Shown in pieces: positions 1-7,411 of a DNA stretch of 13,930 nt (position 1 is its first letter; each line of letters begins with the position of its first letter). This DNA is from a virus (taxonomy: Duplodnaviria > Heunggongvirae > Uroviricota > Caudoviricetes). Made by a program: the position numbers and the translations under genes. The notes under the pieces were generated by a model. That model saw nothing but the letters and a program-made list of their open reading frames with translations. It searched no databases and had not been told where the DNA came from. The stretch covers positions 1-13,930 of IMG/VR virus record IMGVR_UViG_3300015157_000063. One strand, 5' to 3'.

Positions 1-22
1 ACGGGGTCGTTTTTGTGCGGAA

Positions 23-148
23 TTAAAAACGATATCCTGCTGAGAACATAAACACCCACGGATCGAGGCGTACGCTATCGTGTTGCTGTGCACCGCCCAG
101 CTTATAATTGGCGGTGGTATCGATATCCATGTACCACACTGGTAGGTT
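23..148 (-). pseudogene. C-terminal remnant of a Lom/Ail/PagC-family outer-membrane protein (41 codons, in-frame TGA immediately upstream)
   Basis: Minus-strand frame reads NLPVWYMDIDTTANYKLGGAQQHDSVRLDPWVFMFSAGYRF then stop; ends in the GYRF aromatic C-terminal beta-strand typical of Lom/Ail barrels. Not in the ORF track because it is under 60 aa. Confidence 0.3.
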
Positions 149-451
149 TCAAAAAACACAATAACCAATTGTATTTGAAGCAAAAAACAAGACTTTGAGA
201 TGTTTTTTTTGTACCTTTTTTTATGTTTTTAACTGTCTGATTTTATTGAAATCTTTTTTAGTTTTGCAGAAGGAATTTTTTACTTGATTGTAACTTTTTC
301 GTTTTTTTGGGGCTAATTGACGCGCAATGCTGGGCGGGGAGCGCACAGCCAAAAAAACCGAAATTGACCGCTAATTACTGCCAATCATCATCGCTCTGAT
401 TGAGCGTAAATCATTCAGGTTATTCAGTTCTTCCTTCTGCTCTCGCTGACG

Positions 452-622
452 TCAATAAATCCCATCATTGCGATCAACCTCATCCTTAACCATTGATGCG
501 AGCAGTTCTTCCAGTTTCTGCGCTGACAGCTTTACCTGGTGATCTTCAGCATCTTCCCGGGCTATTGTGGTTCGCGCAGTGGCTGATTTTGCTGACATCA
601 CCACAGGGGGCAGACGGACCAT
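452..622 (-). CDS. hypothetical small acidic protein (56 aa from internal ATG at 622)
   Basis: ORF track 452..733; upstream part of that ORF overlaps the hairpin at 689-722, so the internal start MVRLPPVVMSAKS... with GGAGG about 10 nt upstream is more plausible. No recognisable motif. Confidence 0.3.
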   Translation of the reverse strand: MVRLPPVVMSAKSATARTTIAREDAEDHQVKLSAQKLEELLASMVKDEVDRNDGIY

Positions 623-686
623 TGAACCATGGCCTCCGGAACAAATAAGGGCAAAAATAACAACCACTATCGAAAGCTCACAAACT

Positions 687-823
687 AACCGCAGCACGTT
701 CCTGCATACGACGTGTCTGCGGCATAATCCCAATGATTACTCCCTGACAGGATTTGCAGGCCACTCAATATCAGGTACAGTTGATGTATCAACACGATTC
801 AACAATACCCGATATTTATTCCA
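687..823. repeat. direct repeat copy A (~137 bp; tfa 3' end plus hairpin)
   Basis: Near-identical by eye to 1737..1872 (aaccgcagcacgtt...cataatcccaatgattactccctgacagg...ccactcaatatcagg.cagttgatgtatcaacacg.ttca...); one indel inside the hairpin loop. Confidence 0.8.
689..722 (-). terminator. hairpin just downstream of the tfa-fragment stop (copy A of the repeat)
   Basis: Inverted repeat CCGCAGCACG ... CGTGTCTGCGG directly 3' of the stop at 737-739, followed on the minus strand by a T-containing tract. Confidence 0.4.
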
Positions 824-1006
824 TGCCTCCAGCAACGATCTTTCTTCCTCCGTTGCGATTTCCAGATCTACAGCATCCTGCAGTGGCGCAATATACTCAC
901 TGAATTCCTGGATGTGGAACTGTGTGGTGACGGTCTTCCAGTCATTCGGCTCCTGCTGTATCGAAGCATACCAGGCTATTTCAATATCGCTATGCTGCGG
1001 CAGCAT
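737..1006 (-). pseudogene. tfa: tail fibre assembly protein (Tfa) C-terminal fragment, 5'-truncated
   Basis: Translation ...[54 protein letters not shown] aligns with the C-terminus of the Tfa at 3691..4218 (...[45 protein letters not shown]). Only about half a Tfa is present; the upstream part is replaced by the methyltransferase gene. Confidence 0.6.
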
Positions 1007-1062
1007 TTAACCCCTTGTAATTCATCGCCATAATTGATTTAATTCACAAATAAAACTATAAC

Positions 1063-1731
1063 ATGGTGAAATCAATGAAAAAAAACACAGATGATGGGGC
1101 TAAAATTTACACACCACTTACCCTAAAGCTTTATGACTGGTGGGTTTTGGGAGTATCAAATCGGCTTGCATGGGGATGTCCTACAAAGGAACACCTTCTT
1201 CCACACTTTCTGGAACATGTAGGTAACAACCATCTGGATATTGGTGTTGGAACTGGGTTTTACCTTACTCACGTACCTGAGAGTAGTCTGATATCTTTAA
1301 TGGATTTGAACGAAGCTAGCCTGAACGCGGCATCTACAAGGGCTGGGGAATCAAAAATTAAACATAAAATTAGCCATGATGTTTTTGAACCTTATCCCGC
1401 GGCGTTACATGGTCAATTTGATTCCATTTCCATGTTTTACCTTCTTCACTGCCTGCCTGGAAATATATCTACAAAAAGCTGTGTAATACGCAATGCGGCG
1501 CAGGCCTTAACTGACGATGGAACTCTATACGGAGCCACAATTCTTGGCGATGGAGTTGTGCACAATAGCTTCGGTCAAAAACTGATGCGCATTTACAATC
1601 AGAAAGGCATCTTTTCAAACACAAAAGATTCCGAAGAAGGCTTAACACATATACTCTCAGAGCATTTCGAGAATGTTAAAACCAAGGTTCAAGGTACTGT
1701 AGTAATGTTTTCCGCTTCAGGGAAAAAATAG
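1063..1731 (+). CDS. class I SAM-dependent methyltransferase (Rossmann fold), substrate unknown
   Basis: Motif I HLDIGVGTGFYL, acidic residue at the end of beta-2 (LMDLNE), motif FDSISMFYLLHCLPG. No DPPY or PCQ DNA-methyltransferase motifs. Likely true start is the ATG at 1075 (MKKNTDD), preceded by GGTGA. Coding sequence is visibly AT-rich compared with the structural genes. Confidence 0.7.
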   Translation: MVKSMKKNTDDGAKIYTPLTLKLYDWWVLGVSNRLAWGCPTKEHLLPHFLEHVGNNHLDIGVGTGFYLTHVPESSLISLMDLNEASLNAASTRAGESKIKHKISHDVFEPYPAALHGQFDSISMFYLLHCLPGNISTKSCVIRNAAQALTDDGTLYGATILGDGVVHNSFGQKLMRIYNQKGIFSNTKDSEEGLTHILSEHFENVKTKVQGTVVMFSASGKK

Positions 1732-1736
1732 CATCC

Positions 1737-1872
1737 AACCGCAGCACGTTCTTGCTTAAGACGTGCTGCGGCATAATCCCAATGATTACTCCCTGACAGG
1801 GTTCGTAGGCCACTCAATATCAGGTGCAGTTGATGTATCAACACGGTTCAGTAACACCCGATACTTTTTCTA
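1737..1872. repeat. direct repeat copy B (tfa 3' remnant plus hairpin)
   Basis: Matches 687..823. Contains hairpin CCGCAGCACG...CGTGCTGCGG at 1739-1771 and, on the minus strand, 26 codons [27 protein letters not shown]-stop equal to a Tfa C-terminus. Confidence 0.8.
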
Positions 1873-2136
1873 GGCTTCCACCACCAGCACGACAAGATGC
1901 CGCATACAGTGAACCAGTCAGTCCAGTTTTCAGACAACCAGTGCGTCACCTTTTTGAAGGCGCTTTAAAGCACGTTTTAATCCAGGTCGGCCTGTCCTTG
2001 TTCCGCTTAATTTATCTTCAAATATTTGTTCATATCCTGCACAAACAAGAGCGTTTCGTTGCAGATCTGTATTCTGGTCATTTGTTGATACCCTTACATA
2101 GCCAATCAGCACGCTGAATCTCCCGTCCAAAAGCAC
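1786..2136 (-). pseudogene. pin: Din-family serine DNA invertase (Pin/Gin/Hin-like), inactivated: two nonsense codons, 3' deletion, fused to a tfa 3' remnant
   Basis: ORF 1930..2136 (GTG start) encodes ...LIGYVRVSTNDQNTDLQRNALVCAGYEQIFEDKLSGTRTGRPGLKRALKRLQKGDALVV then stops where family members read VVWKLDRLGRS. In-frame continuation reads stop-KLD-stop-LVHCMRHL..., i.e. TGG->TGA and CGA->TGA. After about codon 85 the frame runs into Tfa C-terminal codons. Confidence 0.8.
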
Positions 2137-2166
2137 AAATCATGCCATGCAGGCCAGAAACCGCCA

Positions 2167-2192
2167 TTATCTAAAACCTCGGTTTACGAGAA
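2167..2192. other. gix/hix-like 26-bp invertase crossover site (right of pin)
   Basis: TTATCTAAAACC-TC-GGTTTACGAGAA; close match to the Gin/Hin crossover site as recalled from memory, and inverted relative to the site at 5248..5273. Confidence 0.7.
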
Positions 2193-3125
2193 CTCGGCAC
2201 AAGCGGGGAGAAAATACCGTTACTCAGTACAGCGAATACCTGGACTAATCGACAAACATTCAGCGGTGGCCTTTCTGGTGAACTATCCGGCAATGCTTCT
2301 ACAGCTGCAAAATTAAAAACTGCCAGGAAAATAAGCAATGTGGTTTTTGATGGTTCCTCCGATATCACATTAAAAGCAAGTCATGTTGGTGCGTTTGCCT
2401 TAGGGAAAACAGGAAGCACCGTTGCGAATGATAAAGCAGTTGGATGGAACTGGAGTAGCGGAGCCTATAACGCAACTATTAGTGGTGCATCAACGTTAAT
2501 TATTCATTTTTATATGGGAGAAGGAAGTTGTCCTGCAGCTCAGTTTCGGATTAATTATAAAAATGGCGGTATTTTTTATCGTTCAGCCCGTGATGGTTAT
2601 GGTTTTGAAGCCGACTGGTCCGAATTTTACACCACCACCAGAAAACCTTCAGCAGGAGATGTTGGTGCACTGCCGTTATCTGGTGGTCAACTGAATGGTG
2701 CACTGGGTATCGGAACATCCAGTGCTCTTGGCGGTAATTCGATTGTATTGGGTGATAATGACACGGGCTTTAAACAAAATGGCGATGGTAATCTGGATGT
2801 TTATGCTAATAACGTCCATGTTATGCGCTTTGTCTCCGGAAGCATTCAAAGTAATAAAACCATAAATATTACAGGGCGTGTTAACCCCTCGGATTACGGT
2901 AACTTTGATTCCCGTTATGTGAAAGATGTTCGACTTGGTTCACAGCAATATTATGGAGTGAACAACTGGCAAACATGGAATTTCCGGTGCCCTTCAGGTC
3001 ATGTATTGTCTGGTATTAATGTTCAGGATACAGGGTCTAACTCTGCCGATAATATAGCGGGCGTTTATTACAGACCCGTTCAAAAGTATATAAATGGCAC
3101 CTGGTATAATGTAGCGAGCGTTTAA
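2175..3125 (+). CDS. alternative tail-fibre C-terminal cassette (stf' variable part), start-less, expressed only after inversion
   Basis: Open in frame from the crossover site (ORF track 2340..3125 is the downstream part). Translation [62 protein letters not shown]... ends with ...[17 protein letters not shown], sharing the [20 protein letters not shown] and QKYI.G.WYNV motifs with the stf at 4234..5892. Confidence 0.7.
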
Positions 3126-3126
3126 T

Positions 3127-3660
3127 ATGATGCACTTAAAGAACATAAAAGCGGGTAATGCTAAAACACTGGAACAGTATGAGTTAACAAAGAAACACGG
3201 AGTTATCTGGCTTTACTCTGAGGACGGAAAAAACTGGTATGAGGAAGTGAAAAACTTTCAGCCAGACACCATAAAGATTGTTTACGATGAAAATAATATT
3301 ATTGTTGCCATAACCAAAGATGCCTCCACACTTAACCCTGAAGGTTATAGCGTCGTTGAGATTCCTGATATTACCGCCAACCGGCGTGCTGACGACTCAG
3401 GTAAATGGATGTTTAAAGATGGCGCAGTCATTAAACGTGTATATACCGAAGAAGAGTTGCGCCTACAGACGGAAAACCAGAAAAAAATATTATTACAGCA
3501 GGCCAGAGAAAAAACGCAGTTCTGGCAAACACAGCTTACTTTGGGGATTATCACTGATTCAGACAGACAGCAACTGATGAACTGGATGCGATACGTGCAA
3601 CAGGTTGAGACAACTGATACCTCGGTTCTTCCTGTAACATTCCCGGAACCACCAGAATAA
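3127..3660 (+). CDS. tfa: tail fibre assembly protein, alternative copy (tfa')
   Basis: 177 aa; [44 protein letters not shown]... is a paralogue of the minus-strand Tfa ([44 protein letters not shown]...). Start overlaps the stf' stop. Confidence 0.85.
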
Positions 3661-3690: not shown

Positions 3691-4218
3691 TTATTCTGGT
3701 TTCTGTGGCCATTCAGGCTTTGCAGTATCCACACGGCTGACCATAACGCTGTAGCGTTCCCATGATTCCAGTCGTGTGCGTTCCTCATCAGTTGCCATAT
3801 TCAGTCTGACAGCACGTTCCAGCGGTTGAATCACAGACTCCGCTTCGGAAAGCAAAGCGGCTTTTTGTAACTCTGCCTGCTGTTGCAGTTCCTGTTTTGT
3901 ATATTCCCGCTTTACTACTTTACCATCCAGAAACTTCCAGTTTCCCGAGATATCGGCGCGACGGTTGGCTGTTATATTCGGTAACTCAACAACACTTAAC
4001 CCGTCAGGGTTAAGTGTTGATACGTCTTTCTCAATACAACGAATAATCCCCTTCTGGTCATAAGCTATTTTTAAAGTATCATCCTGAAAGTTTTTTAATT
4101 CGTCATACCAGTTTTTACCGTCTTCTGTATATAGCCAGATAACGCCAGCTTTTTTCGTAAGCTGATACTGCTCAATGGTTTTGGGGTTTCCGGCGGTAAT
4201 ATTTTTCAGATGTTGCAT
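3691..4218 (-). CDS. tfa: tail fibre assembly protein Tfa
   Basis: 175 aa, lambda Tfa / Mu U-like; AGGAGA Shine-Dalgarno upstream; immediately downstream of stf. Confidence 0.9.
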
Positions 4219-4233
4219 ATATTCTCCTGATGG

Positions 4234-5892
4234 CTATGCCTGTTCAACGTTATACCAGTTACCAGAAATGTATTTTTGTAGTGGTCGTGACACCATCCAG
4301 TCATCTCCATCAACCTCACCAATAATTTGCAATCCTGTTGTCACATGACCATTACCTGGTTCGCAAAGTCCTCCGCGATATAATGTGTCAGAACGTCTGC
4401 CTCCCAGACGCACATTTCTGATAAAAGAACTATTCAGGTAATCATTTAAGTTTGAACCCCAGCACCCACCAAATATATTTCCATCGGTGTTATAACGGAC
4501 GCCACCCGCAATAAGAGCACCCGGTGAAATAAAGGATTTATCGTTCGGGTTAAAATACCATAAAGCATCATTACCTCCATCGCCACGCATATGAATACAT
4601 GGAACCGGAAATCCATACTGTTCTGTCAGTAAATACCCAAAGCTGACCGCGCCGGGATAGCCCTGTCCATTGCGAATGGACAAGCCCTTAACTATCGGCA
4701 CGTAATGACCACCAGGAGTGGGATTCCAGGCAAACTGCGTCTGAACAAAAGGCGCGGTGGCATTATTCAACTGGTCTGCAAATGCGCCACTTCCATCAGG
4801 AATTATTCCCTGATGAATATATGCAACCCGCTTATAAAAATCAGCAGATGCGGGTTGAAGCCCAAATGCCAGTTGTCCATTTGAATAGAATAAAAGGACA
4901 CCGTCGCCGCCCTGTTTAATACCAGTGTCGTTATCTCCGAGAGTAATGGAATTACCGCCCAGTGCGTTATCTGTACCAAGCGCCAGCCCACCATCAATTT
5001 TGGCCCCGTGGCTGACAGATATAGCACCTGTTCTCAGATTTATAGCGAATGGCCTTAATGGGCCGATATCACCGTTTTCGCCTTGTCCTTCAGCCGTCGG
5101 AATGAAATGAAGAAAATCTTCTGAACGACGGAAAATAAGACCGAAGGCATCATTGAAAATTCGCAGCGCATTCACCGTGCCAATTTTCAGTTCTCCGGTC
5201 ATTTTATCGCCGGAACGCTGAACGGCGTTACCAGCCTTGTTTACCGTTTCCTGTAAACCGAGGTATTCGATAACGGCGGCAACGGTCGATTTCGCAAGAA
5301 TATCCCGCCCAACTTTTGTCAGGGTTGCCAGACTGGCAACATCATTCCCCGTAAAATACGGAAACCTGTCTGCCGCAGTAGCAAGCCCGGCCAGCGCCGT
5401 CAGGGTGGCATCTTTCGGTTGCTTACCCGCAAGCGCGTTAGTCATGGTGGTCGCAAAATTCGGGTCGTTGCCCAACGCCGCAGCCAGCTCGTTCAGCGTA
5501 TTCAGTGCGTCAGGCGACGAGTCCACGAGGGCAGCGATCGCAGCCATAACATAAGCCGTGCTTGCGATTTGGGTATTATTCGTTCCCTGTCGCGCAGTTG
5601 GTGTTGTTGGCGTTCCGGTCAGTGCAGGACTATTTAAGGGCGCTTTCTTGTTCGTTTCACCCATTACCGCCTTAACCGCTTTTGGCGTTGCCGCCAGTGA
5701 CTCGGAAGTGCTGTTGGTCGCACTGCTGAGCTGTACTATCCCCTTTTTCGTCGTGCTCGCATCCTCCAGCGCCACGGCGGATGCAATATCCTCTGACCGC
5801 CATATTGTCCAGGTACAGGTTCTGGCCGTTGCGCCACCAGTCATCCTCGCGATGAAAATCCGGCATATCAATTCCCGCCAGATGGTATGCAT
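4234..5892 (-). CDS. stf: side tail fibre protein (lambda Stf-like), 5'-truncated; Stf-homologous part is about 4234..5800
   Basis: ...EDIASAVALEDASTTKKGIVQLSSATNSTSESLAATPKAVKAVMGETNKKAPLNSPALTGTPTTPTA...NTLNELAAALGNDPNFATTMTNALAGKQPK... matches the middle region of lambda Stf as recalled. The first ~30 codons of the ORF are K-gene sequence read out of frame. Confidence 0.85.
   Translation of the reverse strand: MHTIWRELICRIFIARMTGGATARTCTWTIWRSEDIASAVALEDASTTKKGIVQLSSATNSTSESLAATPKAVKAVMGETNKKAPLNSPALTGTPTTPTARQGTNNTQIASTAYVMAAIAALVDSSPDALNTLNELAAALGNDPNFATTMTNALAGKQPKDATLTALAGLATAADRFPYFTGNDVASLATLTKVGRDILAKSTVAAVIEYLGLQETVNKAGNAVQRSGDKMTGELKIGTVNALRIFNDAFGLIFRRSEDFLHFIPTAEGQGENGDIGPLRPFAINLRTGAISVSHGAKIDGGLALGTDNALGGNSITLGDNDTGIKQGGDGVLLFYSNGQLAFGLQPASADFYKRVAYIHQGIIPDGSGAFADQLNNATAPFVQTQFAWNPTPGGHYVPIVKGLSIRNGQGYPGAVSFGYLLTEQYGFPVPCIHMRGDGGNDALWYFNPNDKSFISPGALIAGGVRYNTDGNIFGGCWGSNLNDYLNSSFIRNVRLGGRRSDTLYRGGLCEPGNGHVTTGLQIIGEVDGDDWMVSRPLQKYISGNWYNVEQA
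5248..5273. other. gix/hix-like 26-bp crossover site inside stf at the constant/variable boundary
   Basis: TTCCTGTAAACC-GA-GGTATTCGATAA; its reverse complement matches 2167..2192 at 22 of 26 positions; lies at stf codons ~207-215 (VIEYLGLQE). Confidence 0.7.
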
Positions 5893-6271
5893 CCCGGAAC
5901 AGCGTGTAACAGTCCGTCACCCCGTGCTCAAAGCGCCGTCCTGTCAGATGTGGCACACAGCGGAATTTATGAATTTCCCCCCGGCAGACCAGCCACCAGG
6001 GCAGTGCGCTTTTTATCTGCAGCCGCCGGTCAGCCTCGCTCAGCCAGGGCAGCTCACCGGGATGACTGTGGACCAGTGCCACAATCTCCCCCTGCATCTC
6101 TGCCCGCAGCCAGTCTTCCGGTGCGATACGAAAATACGCCTCCGGCTCTGCGGAAATATTCACACAAGGGATATACCGCTCCCCCTCCGGCGTGCTTATC
6201 ACGAAGCCGCACGACTCCGCAGGCGCACACCGCCGGGCATGCGCCAGAATCGCTGATTCAGTCTGTGTCAT
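5672..6271 (-). pseudogene. K: tail-tip assembly protein K (JAB/MPN + NlpC/P60), homologous only over 5804..6271, 3' end replaced
   Basis: MTQTESAILAHARRCAPAESCGFVISTPEGERY...VALVHSHPGELPWLSEADRRLQ...DCYTLFRDAYHLAGIDMPDFHREDDWWRNGQNLYLDN matches lambda K; after codon ~156 the frame reads unrelated sequence that is stf in another frame. Confidence 0.8.
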
Positions 6272-6281
6272 AAACCGGGAT

Positions 6282-6980
6282 TTACTGCGAAAGTTTATTA
6301 ATGGAAAGGAAACCGCCAAAATTGCCGACATTCCTGCGCAGTTCACACCCGCGCATGCACTTGCTGCATCTGTCCTTACGGATATCCGTGGTGGGTTTAT
6401 CGAACTCATCCGCCACAGCCCCGCCCGTGTAACCACACTCATCAGAGCGGTAGGTCCACATACAGGTGTTCGCCAGCATGATACGACCGGGAAACTGCGC
6501 TCCGTCCGTCTCGGTCGGTGTGGCCAGCACAAACGAGGCCGTCATGGCTGTCAGCTGCGACATCTGCTCCACCACCCAGCGGTCGCTCAGCTCCTGCTCC
6601 GGGTCCGCTTCCGGATTGCCCGCCACAAAATTCACCGCATCCAGAAAACGGGCATACACCCGGCGGCGGACCACCGTGGCCCCCACCAGACTCTGCAGGT
6701 CTTCCGCCATCCCGGTGACAAGGCCGAACAGATTGGACACCGTCAGCGACGGTCTGGCACTGCTGCCTTTCCCGTTCATTTCAAAGCCGCTGCCATCAAT
6801 CGGGTACGCCTCATACTTACGCCCCTGCCAGGTGACCGGCTCCCCTTTTTCATTCAGCTCATTACAGAAAAAATACCGCTCACCGCCCTGTACCGTCAGG
6901 TCGATTTCCCAGAGTACCACCCGCGGTGACTGCTCTGATTTAACCGACTCGTTCAGACTTTCTTCGTGAATATCCTGCAT
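6282..6980 (-). CDS. L: minor tail protein L
   Basis: 232 aa; MQDIHEESLNE...VVLWEIDLT..GGERYFFCNE.NEKGEPVTWQGR.Y..YPI.GSGFE.NGKG...GNFGGFLSINKLSQ is near-colinear with lambda L. Confidence 0.9.
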   Translation of the reverse strand: MQDIHEESLNESVKSEQSPRVVLWEIDLTVQGGERYFFCNELNEKGEPVTWQGRKYEAYPIDGSGFEMNGKGSSARPSLTVSNLFGLVTGMAEDLQSLVGATVVRRRVYARFLDAVNFVAGNPEADPEQELSDRWVVEQMSQLTAMTASFVLATPTETDGAQFPGRIMLANTCMWTYRSDECGYTGGAVADEFDKPTTDIRKDRCSKCMRGCELRRNVGNFGGFLSINKLSQ

Positions 6981-7321
6981 CAGTTCACCACCTGCTCAAT
7001 CGTACAACTGAAATCACTGTACCTGGCGTTATCTGTGACGCTCCACTCCCGGCATACCACCCTCACCGTCCGGTTATGTTTCGGCGGTCGCCACAAAAAG
7101 GCACGGTAACCACCATGCCACGATAAAAACTCTTCCAGCCATCGCCGGGTCGCCTCATCCGTCACCCGGAACACCGCCTGAAACGTCTTCAGTCGGGCAT
7201 TAAGTCCCGTCGGGCGGCGCTGTTCATAACCGTCACCAAACCGTACCCTCGCCACCGACGGTTTCTCACTCACCTGCATCCCTTCACGCGGGACCAGATG
7301 CAGCGTTTTTATCTCAGCCAC
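6980..7321 (-). CDS. M: minor tail protein M
   Basis: 113 aa, GTG start; ...VRFGDGYEQRRPTGLNARLKT......FLWRPP...EQVVN resembles lambda M; overlaps the L start. Confidence 0.85.
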   Translation of the reverse strand: MAEIKTLHLVPREGMQVSEKPSVARVRFGDGYEQRRPTGLNARLKTFQAVFRVTDEATRRWLEEFLSWHGGYRAFLWRPPKHNRTVRVVCREWSVTDNARYSDFSCTIEQVVN

Positions 7322-7411
7322 TCAGCATTCCTCCGTCACGTCGCATGGACAGCATCACCGCCTGCACCCGCTGGTCAATCAGTTGCACAAGGCTGCCCGC
7401 AGCTTCCGGCC

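What the first reader, a model, noticed from the sequence alone, without database searches (positions are those of the whole stretch)
687..1872. AT-rich methyltransferase cargo gene framed by 137-bp direct repeats
A plus-strand SAM-dependent methyltransferase gene, opposite in orientation to all surrounding late genes and visibly lower in GC, sits exactly between two direct repeats that each consist of a Tfa 3' end plus a hairpin. The left repeat is attached to a 5'-truncated tfa, the right to the dead pin. This looks like a cassette inserted or exchanged by recombination at the tfa terminator region, and the repeats could allow its precise loss. The motifs are those of a small-molecule/RNA/protein methyltransferase, not a DNA methyltransferase, so its function in a prophage is open.
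Basis: partly seen in the sequence, partly recalled or inferred. Interest (0 to 1): 0.6.

Follow-up and report, generated by a model that had tools for sequence, protein, structure and literature searches.

The report
Known prophage methyltransferase gene ybcY
The flagged gene is ybcY, a methyltransferase of unknown substrate that lambda-like E. coli prophages carry as cargo next to their tail-fibre assembly gene; the repeats around it are two copies of that neighbour's 3' end, and the arrangement is already annotated in E. coli K-12 and occurs in about two thirds of E. coli genomes.

Summary
Window 687-834 and 1737-1883 are direct repeats of about 148 bp and 88% identity, each made of a tfa 3' end plus a hairpin. 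They flank an intact class I SAM-methyltransferase ORF (1063/1075-1731, + strand).

It is not new. The gene is ybcY, and the layout matches tfaD'-ybcY'-tfaX in the K-12 DLP12 prophage. ybcY occurs in 3836 of 5426 complete E. coli genomes. At least 80% of the 687-1883 module is found in 3423 of them. Viable lambdoid phages carry it as J-lom-stf-tfa-<ybcY-tfa relic-hydrolase-ompT-int.

The right repeat is the stump of the resident tfa. That gene is full length in strain S88 at the same ompW site; here it is cut at 1883 by a junction with a dead pin gene. The left repeat belongs to an older tfa relic.

"Precise loss through the repeats" is not supported. I found no empty site, and every loss or variant allele is an illegitimate deletion or insertion.

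The substrate remains unknown. Fold and profile matches point to small-molecule methyltransferases and not to DNA methyltransferases. Interest is low.

The parts
23..148 (-). 3' fragment of host ompW, marking the prophage/host junction
   Evidence: Annotated as 'OmpW family, missing N-terminus' in the 99.9% identical strain TOE17 (L001 13724-13849).
372..640 (-). DUF4376 / tail-fibre-related pseudogene fragment downstream of the left tfa relic
   Evidence: RefSeq annotation. PHROG 7703 and 1141 matches for ORF 452-733.
687..834 (.). Left direct repeat: imperfect hairpin (~689-722) plus the last ~100 nt of the tfa relic
737..1006 (-). tfaX-like 5'-truncated tail-fibre assembly gene (89-aa ORF)
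   Evidence: Caudo_TAP profile positions 75-130 of 131, E = 1.7e-24. PHROG 2341 matched over its full length, E = 1.4e-60. Translation. It corresponds in position to the tfa remnant on that side of ybcY in K-12, which a K-12 study names tfaX.
1034..1062 (+). Likely ybcY sigma-70 promoter, TTGATT-17-TATAAC
   Evidence: This motif is listed for the ybcY/tfaX divergent spacer in K-12 by RpoD genomic SELEX, with an H-NS mark there (PMC3946193). The motif is read directly in the window. A second consensus match lies at 1007-1034.
1063..1731 (+). ybcY, class I SAM-dependent methyltransferase (222 aa as annotated; 218 aa if it starts at ATG 1075)
1737..1883 (.). Right direct repeat: perfect hairpin (1739-1771) plus the last ~100 nt of the resident tfa, now a stump
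   Evidence: In S88, PhiR26_1 and K-12 the same sequence continues as a longer or full tfa.
1885..2136 (-). Dead pin-type invertase gene: N-terminal ~84 codons, GTG start, two in-frame stops, joined to the tfa stump at 1883/1884
   Evidence: Resolvase profile positions 2-69 of 145. Translations.
2340..3660 (+). Frozen invertible segment: alternative tail-fibre C-terminus (2340-3125) and its tfa (3127-3660)
   Evidence: Pfam gp37_C and Caudo_TAP. RefSeq annotation.
3691..5892 (-). Expressed-orientation tfa (3691-4218) and tail-fibre gene (4234-5892) of the defective prophage
   Evidence: Pfam. Annotation.

Best explanation
This is the ybcY-tfaX module of lambda-like (DLP12-type) E. coli prophages.

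ybcY is a cargo gene, a 'moron', lying where the phage b region meets the tail-fibre genes. It has its own promoter and runs in the int/ompT direction, converging on the tail-fibre assembly gene tfa. A strong hairpin sits between the two genes.

The two 'framing repeats' are two tfa 3' ends. The right one is what remains of the resident tfa. The left one belongs to a relic of an older tfa allele (tfaX), probably left behind when a tail-fibre module, possibly with ybcY attached, was swapped in by recombination. In this window's lineage a later illegitimate junction with a now-dead pin gene cut the right tfa down to its last ~100 nt.

The protein is most likely a small-molecule methyltransferase, possibly an O- or carboxyl-methyltransferase, made in the lysogen. 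It is dispensable for the phage.

Shown: the gene's identity, the synteny, the origin of the repeats, the fold and the breakpoints. Inferred: the order of historical events, expression in the lysogen and the substrate class.
For: Identity and distribution.
- K-12 DLP12 has tfa'-ybcY(frameshifted)-tfa'-appY-ompT.
- ybcY is in 3836 of 5426 complete E. coli genomes. At least 80% of window 687-1883 is present in 3423.
- Fourteen deposited lambdoid phage records carry at least 80% of the gene region. PhiR26_1 shows J-lom-stf-tfa(full)-<ybcY-tfa relic-hydrolase-ompT. 2G7b shows the same b region followed by int.

Origin of the repeats.
- Strain S88 has a prophage at the same yciE/ompW site that matches window 1-1883 at 99.2%. 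It then continues as a full 585-bp tfa and a 3.1-kb tail-fibre gene.
- The window-type pin junction is found in 377 genomes.
- Direct tfa repeats flank ybcY in every reference locus, but their extents differ (75-157 bp) and identity is 85-88%. The left relic's 3' end differs between lineages. This looks like relics of different tfa alleles, not a target-site duplication.

Cargo status.
- In 80 IMG/VR prophage loci, ybcY usually lies 0.3-1.3 kb from the predicted prophage end.
- GC is 41% against 55.5% for the structural genes.
- An RpoD-SELEX promoter and an H-NS mark are reported in the K-12 ybcY/tfaX spacer (PMC3946193).

Likely function retained.
- The ORF is 98.8-100% identical across unrelated contexts, with dN/dS of 0.09-0.29, though on only 2-8 substitutions.
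- It stays intact in the minimal ompT-ybcY-tfa'-int' remnant of UPEC strains.
- SAM-binding motifs are invariant across homologues of 56-90% identity from many genera.

Enzyme class.
- Pfam Methyltransf_12, _23, _25 and _11.
- A family profile's best solved relatives are juvenile-hormone acid O-methyltransferase (E = 5e-6) and UbiG.
- One distant homologue is fused to a cytochrome P450.
Against: - No substrate evidence exists. The literature I could search contains no functional study of ybcY.
- The hairpin has no T-tract on the ybcY strand, so it is not a canonical intrinsic terminator for ybcY.
- The K-12 copy is frameshifted, so the gene is dispensable in the laboratory.
- The dN/dS estimates rest on very few substitutions.
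- The order of events (module replacement versus insertion into a duplicated tfa) is inferred, not shown.
Confidence: 0.8

Rival explanations
1. One reading: an excisable or insertable cassette, in which the ~148-bp repeats are the functional ends of a unit that enters and leaves the tfa terminator region by recombination between them.
For: The repeats are real and direct. They share one 35-nt perfect run, long enough in principle for RecA-dependent recombination by established knowledge of minimal homology. The module occurs at several prophage sites and in up to 4 copies per genome. Some breakpoints lie inside tfa homology.
Against: The one-repeat junction query returned only filled sites, as two-piece hits; no single-piece hit ranked at or above them. 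Known loss or variant alleles use other breakpoints: 1036|1696, 980, ~510|934, and an insertion at 1777. Repeat extent differs between lineages, and the left arm is absent in UPEC remnants. The right 'repeat' is simply the resident tfa gene in intact phages. No dedicated recombinase is present; pin is dead and acts on a different site.
Confidence: 0.1
2. YbcY is a nucleic-acid or protein methyltransferase that serves the phage, for example in anti-restriction, epigenetic marking, or tRNA/rRNA modification during infection.
Against: No DNA-methyltransferase family was matched and there is no target-recognition domain; the protein is 218 aa. No defence-system match reaches significance; the best is mad2 at E = 0.009. 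Close homologues are stand-alone chromosomal genes in Salmonella and Enterobacter with no phage context. The gene points away from the late operon and sits in the non-essential b region.
Confidence: 0.12
3. It is decaying junk: a hitch-hiking ORF with no current function, kept only by linkage to ompT or tail-fibre DNA.
For: The K-12 copy is frameshifted. Phage Ayreon and strain CH4797 have deleted it. H-NS binding suggests silencing. A ybcY mutant showed no effect in the one screen that mentions it (PMC2408971).
Against: The ORF is intact, with invariant catalytic-type motifs, across thousands of genomes and across genera. The coding sequence is more conserved than its flanks (98.8% against 96.2% for the module in UPEC). 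It is retained in a prophage remnant that has lost almost everything else.
Confidence: 0.15

Closest known systems
E. coli K-12 DLP12 prophage locus tfaD'-ybcY'-tfaX (b0561-b0563; the b-numbers are from my own knowledge)
   Same: Same gene (98.9% nt identity over window 1007-1736), same orientation, same tfa-derived sequences on both sides and the same hairpin.
   Different: The K-12 copy is frameshifted. Its right tfa piece is longer (438 bp) and joined to a terminase remnant, not to pin. Its left relic has a different 3' end and lacks the hairpin. It sits at argU rather than ompW.
b-region cargo of viable lambdoid phages PhiR26_1, 2G7b (Nesevirus), ev243, Turner and Kati
   Same: ybcY is 99.3-99.7% identical over the same stretch and lies between the tail-fibre genes and a tfa relic, in the same direction as hydrolase-ompT(-int).
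   Different: In PhiR26_1 the right-hand tfa is full length and functional. The left relic has a divergent 3' end, so the flanking repeat there is an internal 75-132-bp stretch without the hairpin.
Lambdoid-phage 'morons' in the sense of Hendrix and colleagues (from my own knowledge), e.g. lambda lom and bor, or prophage sodC
   Same: An accessory gene with lower GC, its own promoter and a flanking hairpin, placed between phage modules at the prophage end and dispensable for phage growth.
   Different: Expression from the repressed prophage was not tested here. The hairpin is not a canonical terminator on the ybcY strand.
Small-molecule class I SAM methyltransferases: juvenile-hormone acid O-methyltransferase, UbiG, RebM, BelI
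   Different: Only 12-21% identity. The family-specific YDWWVL..SN..AW.C and YN.KGIFSN..DS motifs have no counterpart of known function. Substrate unknown.
The 'putative SAM-dependent methyltransferase' next to rmpA on Klebsiella pneumoniae virulence plasmids and ICEKp1 (BAH65943.1 on pK2044)
   Same: A homologue: 67% nt identity, and about 64% aa for the Klebsiella protein cluster P0068. It is likewise a lone gene among virulence-linked cargo on mobile DNA.
   Different: It is plasmid- or ICE-borne with no tfa flanks, and lies divergent from rmpADC. It is also uncharacterised.

Membership tests
Class I (Rossmann-fold) SAM-dependent methyltransferase | Motif I, the glycine-rich SAM-binding loop (GxGxG) | tested here: met
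   LDIGVGTG at residues 58-65. D59, G61, G63 and G65 are invariant in 36 homologues.
Class I (Rossmann-fold) SAM-dependent methyltransferase | Acidic residue at the end of strand beta-2 that binds the SAM ribose | tested here: met
   D81 (LMDLN) is invariant and lies at the end of predicted strand 76-81.
Class I (Rossmann-fold) SAM-dependent methyltransferase | Seven-stranded beta-sheet fold with flanking helices | tested here: met
Class I (Rossmann-fold) SAM-dependent methyltransferase | Score above a curated family threshold | tested here: met
   Methyltransf_12: 37.5 bits against a cut-off of 30. Methyltransf_23, _25 and _11 are also above their cut-offs.
YbcY family (PHROG 2132; K-12 ybcY) | Full-length sequence match | tested here: met
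   PHROG 2132, E = 4.2e-157, profile positions 1-218 of 218. 98.9% nt identity to the K-12 locus over window 1007-1736.
YbcY family (PHROG 2132; K-12 ybcY) | Synteny: convergent with tfa, with a tfa relic upstream | tested here: met
DNA methyltransferase (N6-A, N4-C or C5) | Catalytic motif IV (DPPY or PCQ type) and a target-recognition domain; match to a DNA-methyltransferase family | tested here: not met
   No DNA-methyltransferase family appears in the Pfam or NCBIfam scans at E <= 0.01. The protein is a single 218-aa domain.
Phage 'moron' | Own promoter | tested here: inconclusive
   TTGATT-17-TATAAC at 1034-1062 is the motif reported from RpoD SELEX for K-12 ybcY. The consensus scan gave one other weak site, and promoter-like sites were not enriched over shuffled sequence. 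Activity in this strain was not measured.
Phage 'moron' | Own terminator | tested here: inconclusive
   A strong hairpin lies 7 nt after the stop codon (z = -5.4), but no T-tract follows it on the + strand.
Phage 'moron' | Base composition unlike the neighbouring phage genes | tested here: met
   41.1% GC against 55.5% for 5893-13930. The adjacent tail-fibre accessory genes are also low, at 41.6-50%.
Phage 'moron' | Expressed from the repressed prophage; dispensable for lytic growth | not testable with these tools
   Dispensability is suggested by phage Ayreon, a deposited phage that carries a ybcY deletion. Expression needs RNA-seq.
Repeat-bounded excisable cassette | Existence of empty sites with one repeat copy and otherwise identical flanks | tested here: not met
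   The synthetic junction query returned only two-piece (filled) hits at the top of the ranking among 5426 genomes.
Tail-fibre assembly protein (Caudo_TAP) for ORF 737-1006 | Full-length match to the domain | tested here: not met
   Only profile positions 75-130 of 131 are matched. The first 30 residues are unrelated to tfa. It is a relic.
Pin/Gin/Hin serine invertase for 1885-2136 | Intact resolvase catalytic domain plus a C-terminal DNA-binding domain | tested here: not met
   Only profile positions 2-69 of 145 are matched. There are two in-frame stops and no C-terminal half. It is a pseudogene.

The most novel reading that the evidence does not exclude
YbcY-family enzymes could be a recurrent lysogenic-conversion or virulence-island methyltransferase of Enterobacteriaceae. 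They travel with ompT in E. coli phages. In Klebsiella they sit next to rmpADC, iro and peg-344 on hypervirulence plasmids and ICEKp1. In Citrobacter and Salmonella they lie near sodC, sopA and perC-type cargo. On this reading they methylate one specific small molecule or envelope-related metabolite, perhaps a carboxylate as JHAMT does, and this changes how the bacterium deals with its host. A secondary reading is that the tfa-derived arms act as portable homology that moves the gene between lambdoid phages.
Probability: 0.15. Interest if true: 0.55.

Novelty: already known. Interest (0 to 1): 0.2.

Why it matters
As a genome feature it adds little. The gene, its tfa-derived flanks and its position are already annotated in the K-12 reference genome and in thousands of others.

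What remains open is biochemical. YbcY is an intact, strongly conserved methyltransferase with no known substrate. It is present in about 70% of complete E. coli genomes, including ST131, O157:H7, UPEC and Nissle 1917. A homologue lies beside the hypermucoviscosity locus of hypervirulent Klebsiella. Identifying the substrate would assign a function to a very widespread prophage cargo gene.

The locus also illustrates how tail-fibre module swapping leaves tfa relics, and how the tfa-proximal end of the b region collects cargo and deletions.

Tried and rejected
- Empty-site search. A synthetic junction (window 300-834 joined to 1884-2400) found no precise-excision product.
- Genomic context of homologues for functional clues. 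Salmonella and Enterobacter copies are lone genes with no conserved partner. Citrobacter and Salmonella variants lie in prophage or island cargo without tfa. No operon-based inference was possible.
- Domain fusions among distant relatives. One P450 fusion and one RCC1 fusion; the rest are plain extensions. Not decisive.
- Curated and defence libraries. NCBIfam gave only far-sub-threshold hits (CpaM, RquA, PmtA). PADLOC gave nothing significant.
- Sequence search of solved structures. Only weak JHAMT and UbiG matches.
- Foldseek against afdb50 was not available.
- Rfam and tRNA scans of the window found nothing.
- Whether the hairpin is a high-copy repeat element. It is not: median 2 places per genome. 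It is also found beside a dinI-like gene in the CH4797 prophage. It looks like an ordinary lambdoid inter-module hairpin.
- Literature. The papers that mention ybcY do so only in gene lists or tables.
Full report
**What is in the sequence**

The window carries a direct repeat at 687-834 and 1737-1883. It is 148 aligned positions long with one 1-nt indel, 87.8% identical, and has a self-BLAST E of 2.6e-49.

Each copy holds the last ~100 nt of a minus-strand tail-fibre assembly gene (tfa). The stop codons are at 737-739 and 1786-1788. The encoded C-termini are ...[12 protein letters not shown](V/A)PDIEWP(A/T)NPVRE*.

Each copy also holds ~50 nt of downstream sequence with a hairpin. The right hairpin (1739-1771) is perfect and much more stable than shuffled sequence (-23 to -28.5 kcal/mol, z about -5.4). 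The left one is imperfect.

Between the copies lies an intact + strand ORF, 1063-1731, of 222 aa. It exceeds the Pfam gathering scores of Methyltransf_12, _23, _25 and _11.

The left copy continues into an 89-aa ORF (737-1006, minus strand). Only its C-terminal 56 residues are Tfa-like, matching Caudo_TAP positions 75-130 of 131.

The right copy stops at 1883/1884 against the N-terminal ~84 codons of a pin-type invertase gene. That remnant has a GTG start and two in-frame stops.

- The repeat is ~148 bp, not 137.
- It abuts the gene only on the right.
- The gene's 41% GC is low against the window (51%) and the head and tail genes (55.5%), but similar to the adjacent tail-fibre accessory genes (41.6-50%).
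- The start codon is probably ATG 1075. All homologues begin there, and GGTGA precedes it.

**What it is**

The window is a defective lambdoid prophage of E. coli, integrated in ompW next to yciE. Strain TOE17 matches at 99.9%.

The methyltransferase gene is ybcY. In K-12 the DLP12 prophage reads terminase remnant-tfa'-ybcY(frameshifted)-tfa'-appY-ompT. This is the classical tfaD/ybcY/tfaX arrangement; the gene names are from my own knowledge and from PMC3946193.

ybcY is found in 3836 of 5426 complete E. coli genomes, with up to four copies per genome. At least 80% of window 687-1883 is present in 3423 genomes.

Sixteen deposited phage records match, and fourteen of them hold at least 80% of the gene region. 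PhiR26_1 reads J-lom-stf-tfa(full length)-<ybcY-tfa relic-hydrolase-ompT. 2G7b has the same b region followed by int.

ybcY therefore belongs to the phage b region and points the same way as int, ompT and the hydrolase gene. That is why it opposes the late genes. PHROGs has it as family 2132, function unknown.

**Where the repeats come from**

Strain S88 has a prophage at the same yciE/ompW site. It matches window 1-1883 at 99.2% and then continues as an intact 585-bp tfa and a 3.1-kb side tail-fibre gene.

So the right 'repeat' is the stump of the resident tfa. In the window's lineage (377 genomes, including ST131) an illegitimate junction with a pin-bearing tail-fibre module cut it at 1883.

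The left repeat belongs to the tfaX-like relic. Three observations bear on its origin:
- Its first 30 codons are unrelated to tfa.
- Its 3' end differs between lineages. It resembles the right copy and includes the hairpin in the window and S88. It is divergent and lacks the hairpin in PhiR26_1, 2G7b and K-12.
- Direct tfa-derived repeats do flank ybcY in all four reference loci, but they cover different stretches (75-157 bp) at 85-88% identity.

This pattern fits relics of different tfa alleles left by successive tail-fibre module replacements. It does not fit a target duplication made when ybcY was inserted. That reading is an inference.

**Cassette behaviour**

Comparison with 12 reference loci and 80 IMG/VR prophage loci shows a conserved core (window ~760/782-1883) in varied flanks.

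| Side | Recurrent breakpoints | Position relative to features |
|---|---|---|
| Left | 665 | just beyond the left hairpin |
| Left | 759/760, 782 | inside the conserved tfa C-terminal coding sequence |
| Left | 934, 980 | inside the relic's non-tfa part |
| Right | 1771/1777 | at the edge of the right hairpin |
| Right | 1883 | the pin junction |

Breakpoints inside tfa homology support exchange by homologous recombination between tfa alleles.

The proposed precise loss through the repeats is not seen. A synthetic one-repeat junction retrieved only filled sites, as two-piece hits. No single-piece hit ranked at or above them.

The loss or variant alleles I found were all made in other ways:
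- Phage Ayreon and the prophage in strain CH4797 join window 1036 directly to 1696. This deletes 659 bp of ybcY and keeps its last 36 nt.
- UPEC-type DLP12 remnants read ompT-ybcY-tfa'-int'-tRNA-Arg with no left arm at all.
- Locus L065 has lost ~510-934.
- O157:H7 has yciGFE-like genes and a manganese-catalase gene inserted at 1777, between the hairpin and tfa.

The repeats share only one perfect run long enough for efficient RecA recombination, 35 nt.

**The hairpin**

It occurs in 5119 of 5426 genomes at a median of two places per genome. It is also found beside a dinI-like gene in the CH4797 prophage.

It looks like an ordinary lambdoid inter-module hairpin. It is not a high-copy element and not specific to ybcY. 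It has no T-tract on the ybcY strand. Rfam and tRNA scans of the window are empty.

**The protein**

Homologues of 56-90% identity occur in Citrobacter, Salmonella, Enterobacter, Klebsiella, Erwinia, Yersinia, Aeromonas and others. Almost all are ~218 aa.

Invariant residues include motif I (DIGVGTG) and D81. They also include two family-specific blocks, YDWWVL..SN..AW.C near the N-terminus and YN.KGIFSN..DS near the C-terminus.

A family profile finds juvenile-hormone acid O-methyltransferase (E = 5e-6) and UbiG as the nearest solved relatives. No DNA-methyltransferase family and no defence-system family is matched at a significant level.

Genomic context of the chromosomal homologues gives no conserved partner.

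Across E. coli contexts the ORF is 98.8-100% identical. dN/dS is 0.09-0.29, on only 2-8 substitutions.

In K-12 an RpoD-SELEX promoter (TTGATT-17-TATAAC, present at window 1034-1062) and an H-NS mark are reported in the ybcY/tfaX spacer (PMC3946193).

I found no functional study of ybcY.

**Most likely mechanism**

ybcY is a moron-type cargo gene. It probably encodes a small-molecule (possibly O- or carboxyl-) methyltransferase made in the lysogen, and it is dispensable for the phage. The tfa repeats are historical by-products that also provide homology for module exchange.

Confidence is high for identity and architecture, moderate for enzyme class, and low for any specific substrate.

**Comparison with what is known, and novelty**

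The feature is the same as the K-12 tfaD-ybcY-tfaX locus and the b-region cargo of deposited lambdoid phages. I rate it already known.

The only open question is the enzyme's substrate and its benefit to the host.

A homologue (67% nt identity) lies beside and divergent from rmpA-rmpD-rmpC on Klebsiella virulence plasmids. It is listed as a marker gene of liver-abscess and hypervirulent strains, but is uncharacterised (PMC5126061 and PMC12525063). This makes the family somewhat more interesting than the locus itself.

Overall interest is 0.2.

Noticed in passing
L005 8041-8748 (K. pneumoniae pKCTC2242); 603 Klebsiella plasmid records: A ybcY homologue (67% nt identity) lies immediately beside and divergent from rmpA-rmpD-rmpC, near peg-344 and iroN, on hypervirulence plasmids. 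The listed Klebsiella records show two matching places each. Papers list it as an hvKp or liver-abscess marker of unknown function.
   Followed up: partly
L011 3388-3688 (phage Ayreon); L012 3388-3688 (E. coli CH4797): A ybcY deletion allele. Window 920-1036 is joined directly to 1696-1883 (junction CATAA|CTGTAG), leaving the last 36 nt of the ORF next to the hairpin and tfa.
   Followed up: yes
window 1885-3660: A frozen tail-fibre inversion switch. The pin gene has a GTG start, two in-frame stops and no C-terminal half. The alternative tail-fibre C-terminus and tfa (2340-3660) are locked on the + strand.
   Followed up: partly
L013 4772-7556 (E. coli O157:H7 FRIK2455): Second copies of yciG-, yciF- and yciE-like stress genes, plus a manganese-catalase gene, are inserted as prophage cargo between the ybcY hairpin and tfa. 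An ISEc8 lies on the other side.
   Followed up: no
L015 and L016 2872-5854 (UPEC 26-1, FY10): A minimal DLP12 remnant at tRNA-Arg keeps only ompT-ybcY-tfa'-int', with ybcY intact. A paper on OmpT-like proteases reports the same ompT context, 272 bp upstream of ybcY, for CFT073, UTI89, 536 and other strains.
   Followed up: partly
window 1676-1813 (-): RefSeq annotates a 45-aa ORF that overlaps the ybcY 3' end, the hairpin and the tfa stump. It is called 'hypothetical protein' here and 'nucleocapsid protein' in K-12 strains. This is almost certainly a spurious call and name.
   Followed up: no
window 5786-9016: The prophage is defective. By the annotation of the 99.9% identical strain TOE17, the tail protein, a C40 peptidase, the tape-measure gene and the major capsid gene are all truncated, with pairs of remnants abutting one another. 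This indicates large internal deletions.
   Followed up: no
window 23-148 and 149-371: An ompW 3' fragment marks integration within ompW. An AT-rich (35-39% GC), gene-free stretch follows, between it and the DUF4376 fragment.
   Followed up: no
L022/L023 5001-10657 (Citrobacter braakii); L020 (Salmonella enterica): More distant YbcY homologues (68-79% aa) sit among other prophage or island cargo (sodC, dinI and sopA; perC and an autotransporter), not next to tfa.
   Followed up: no
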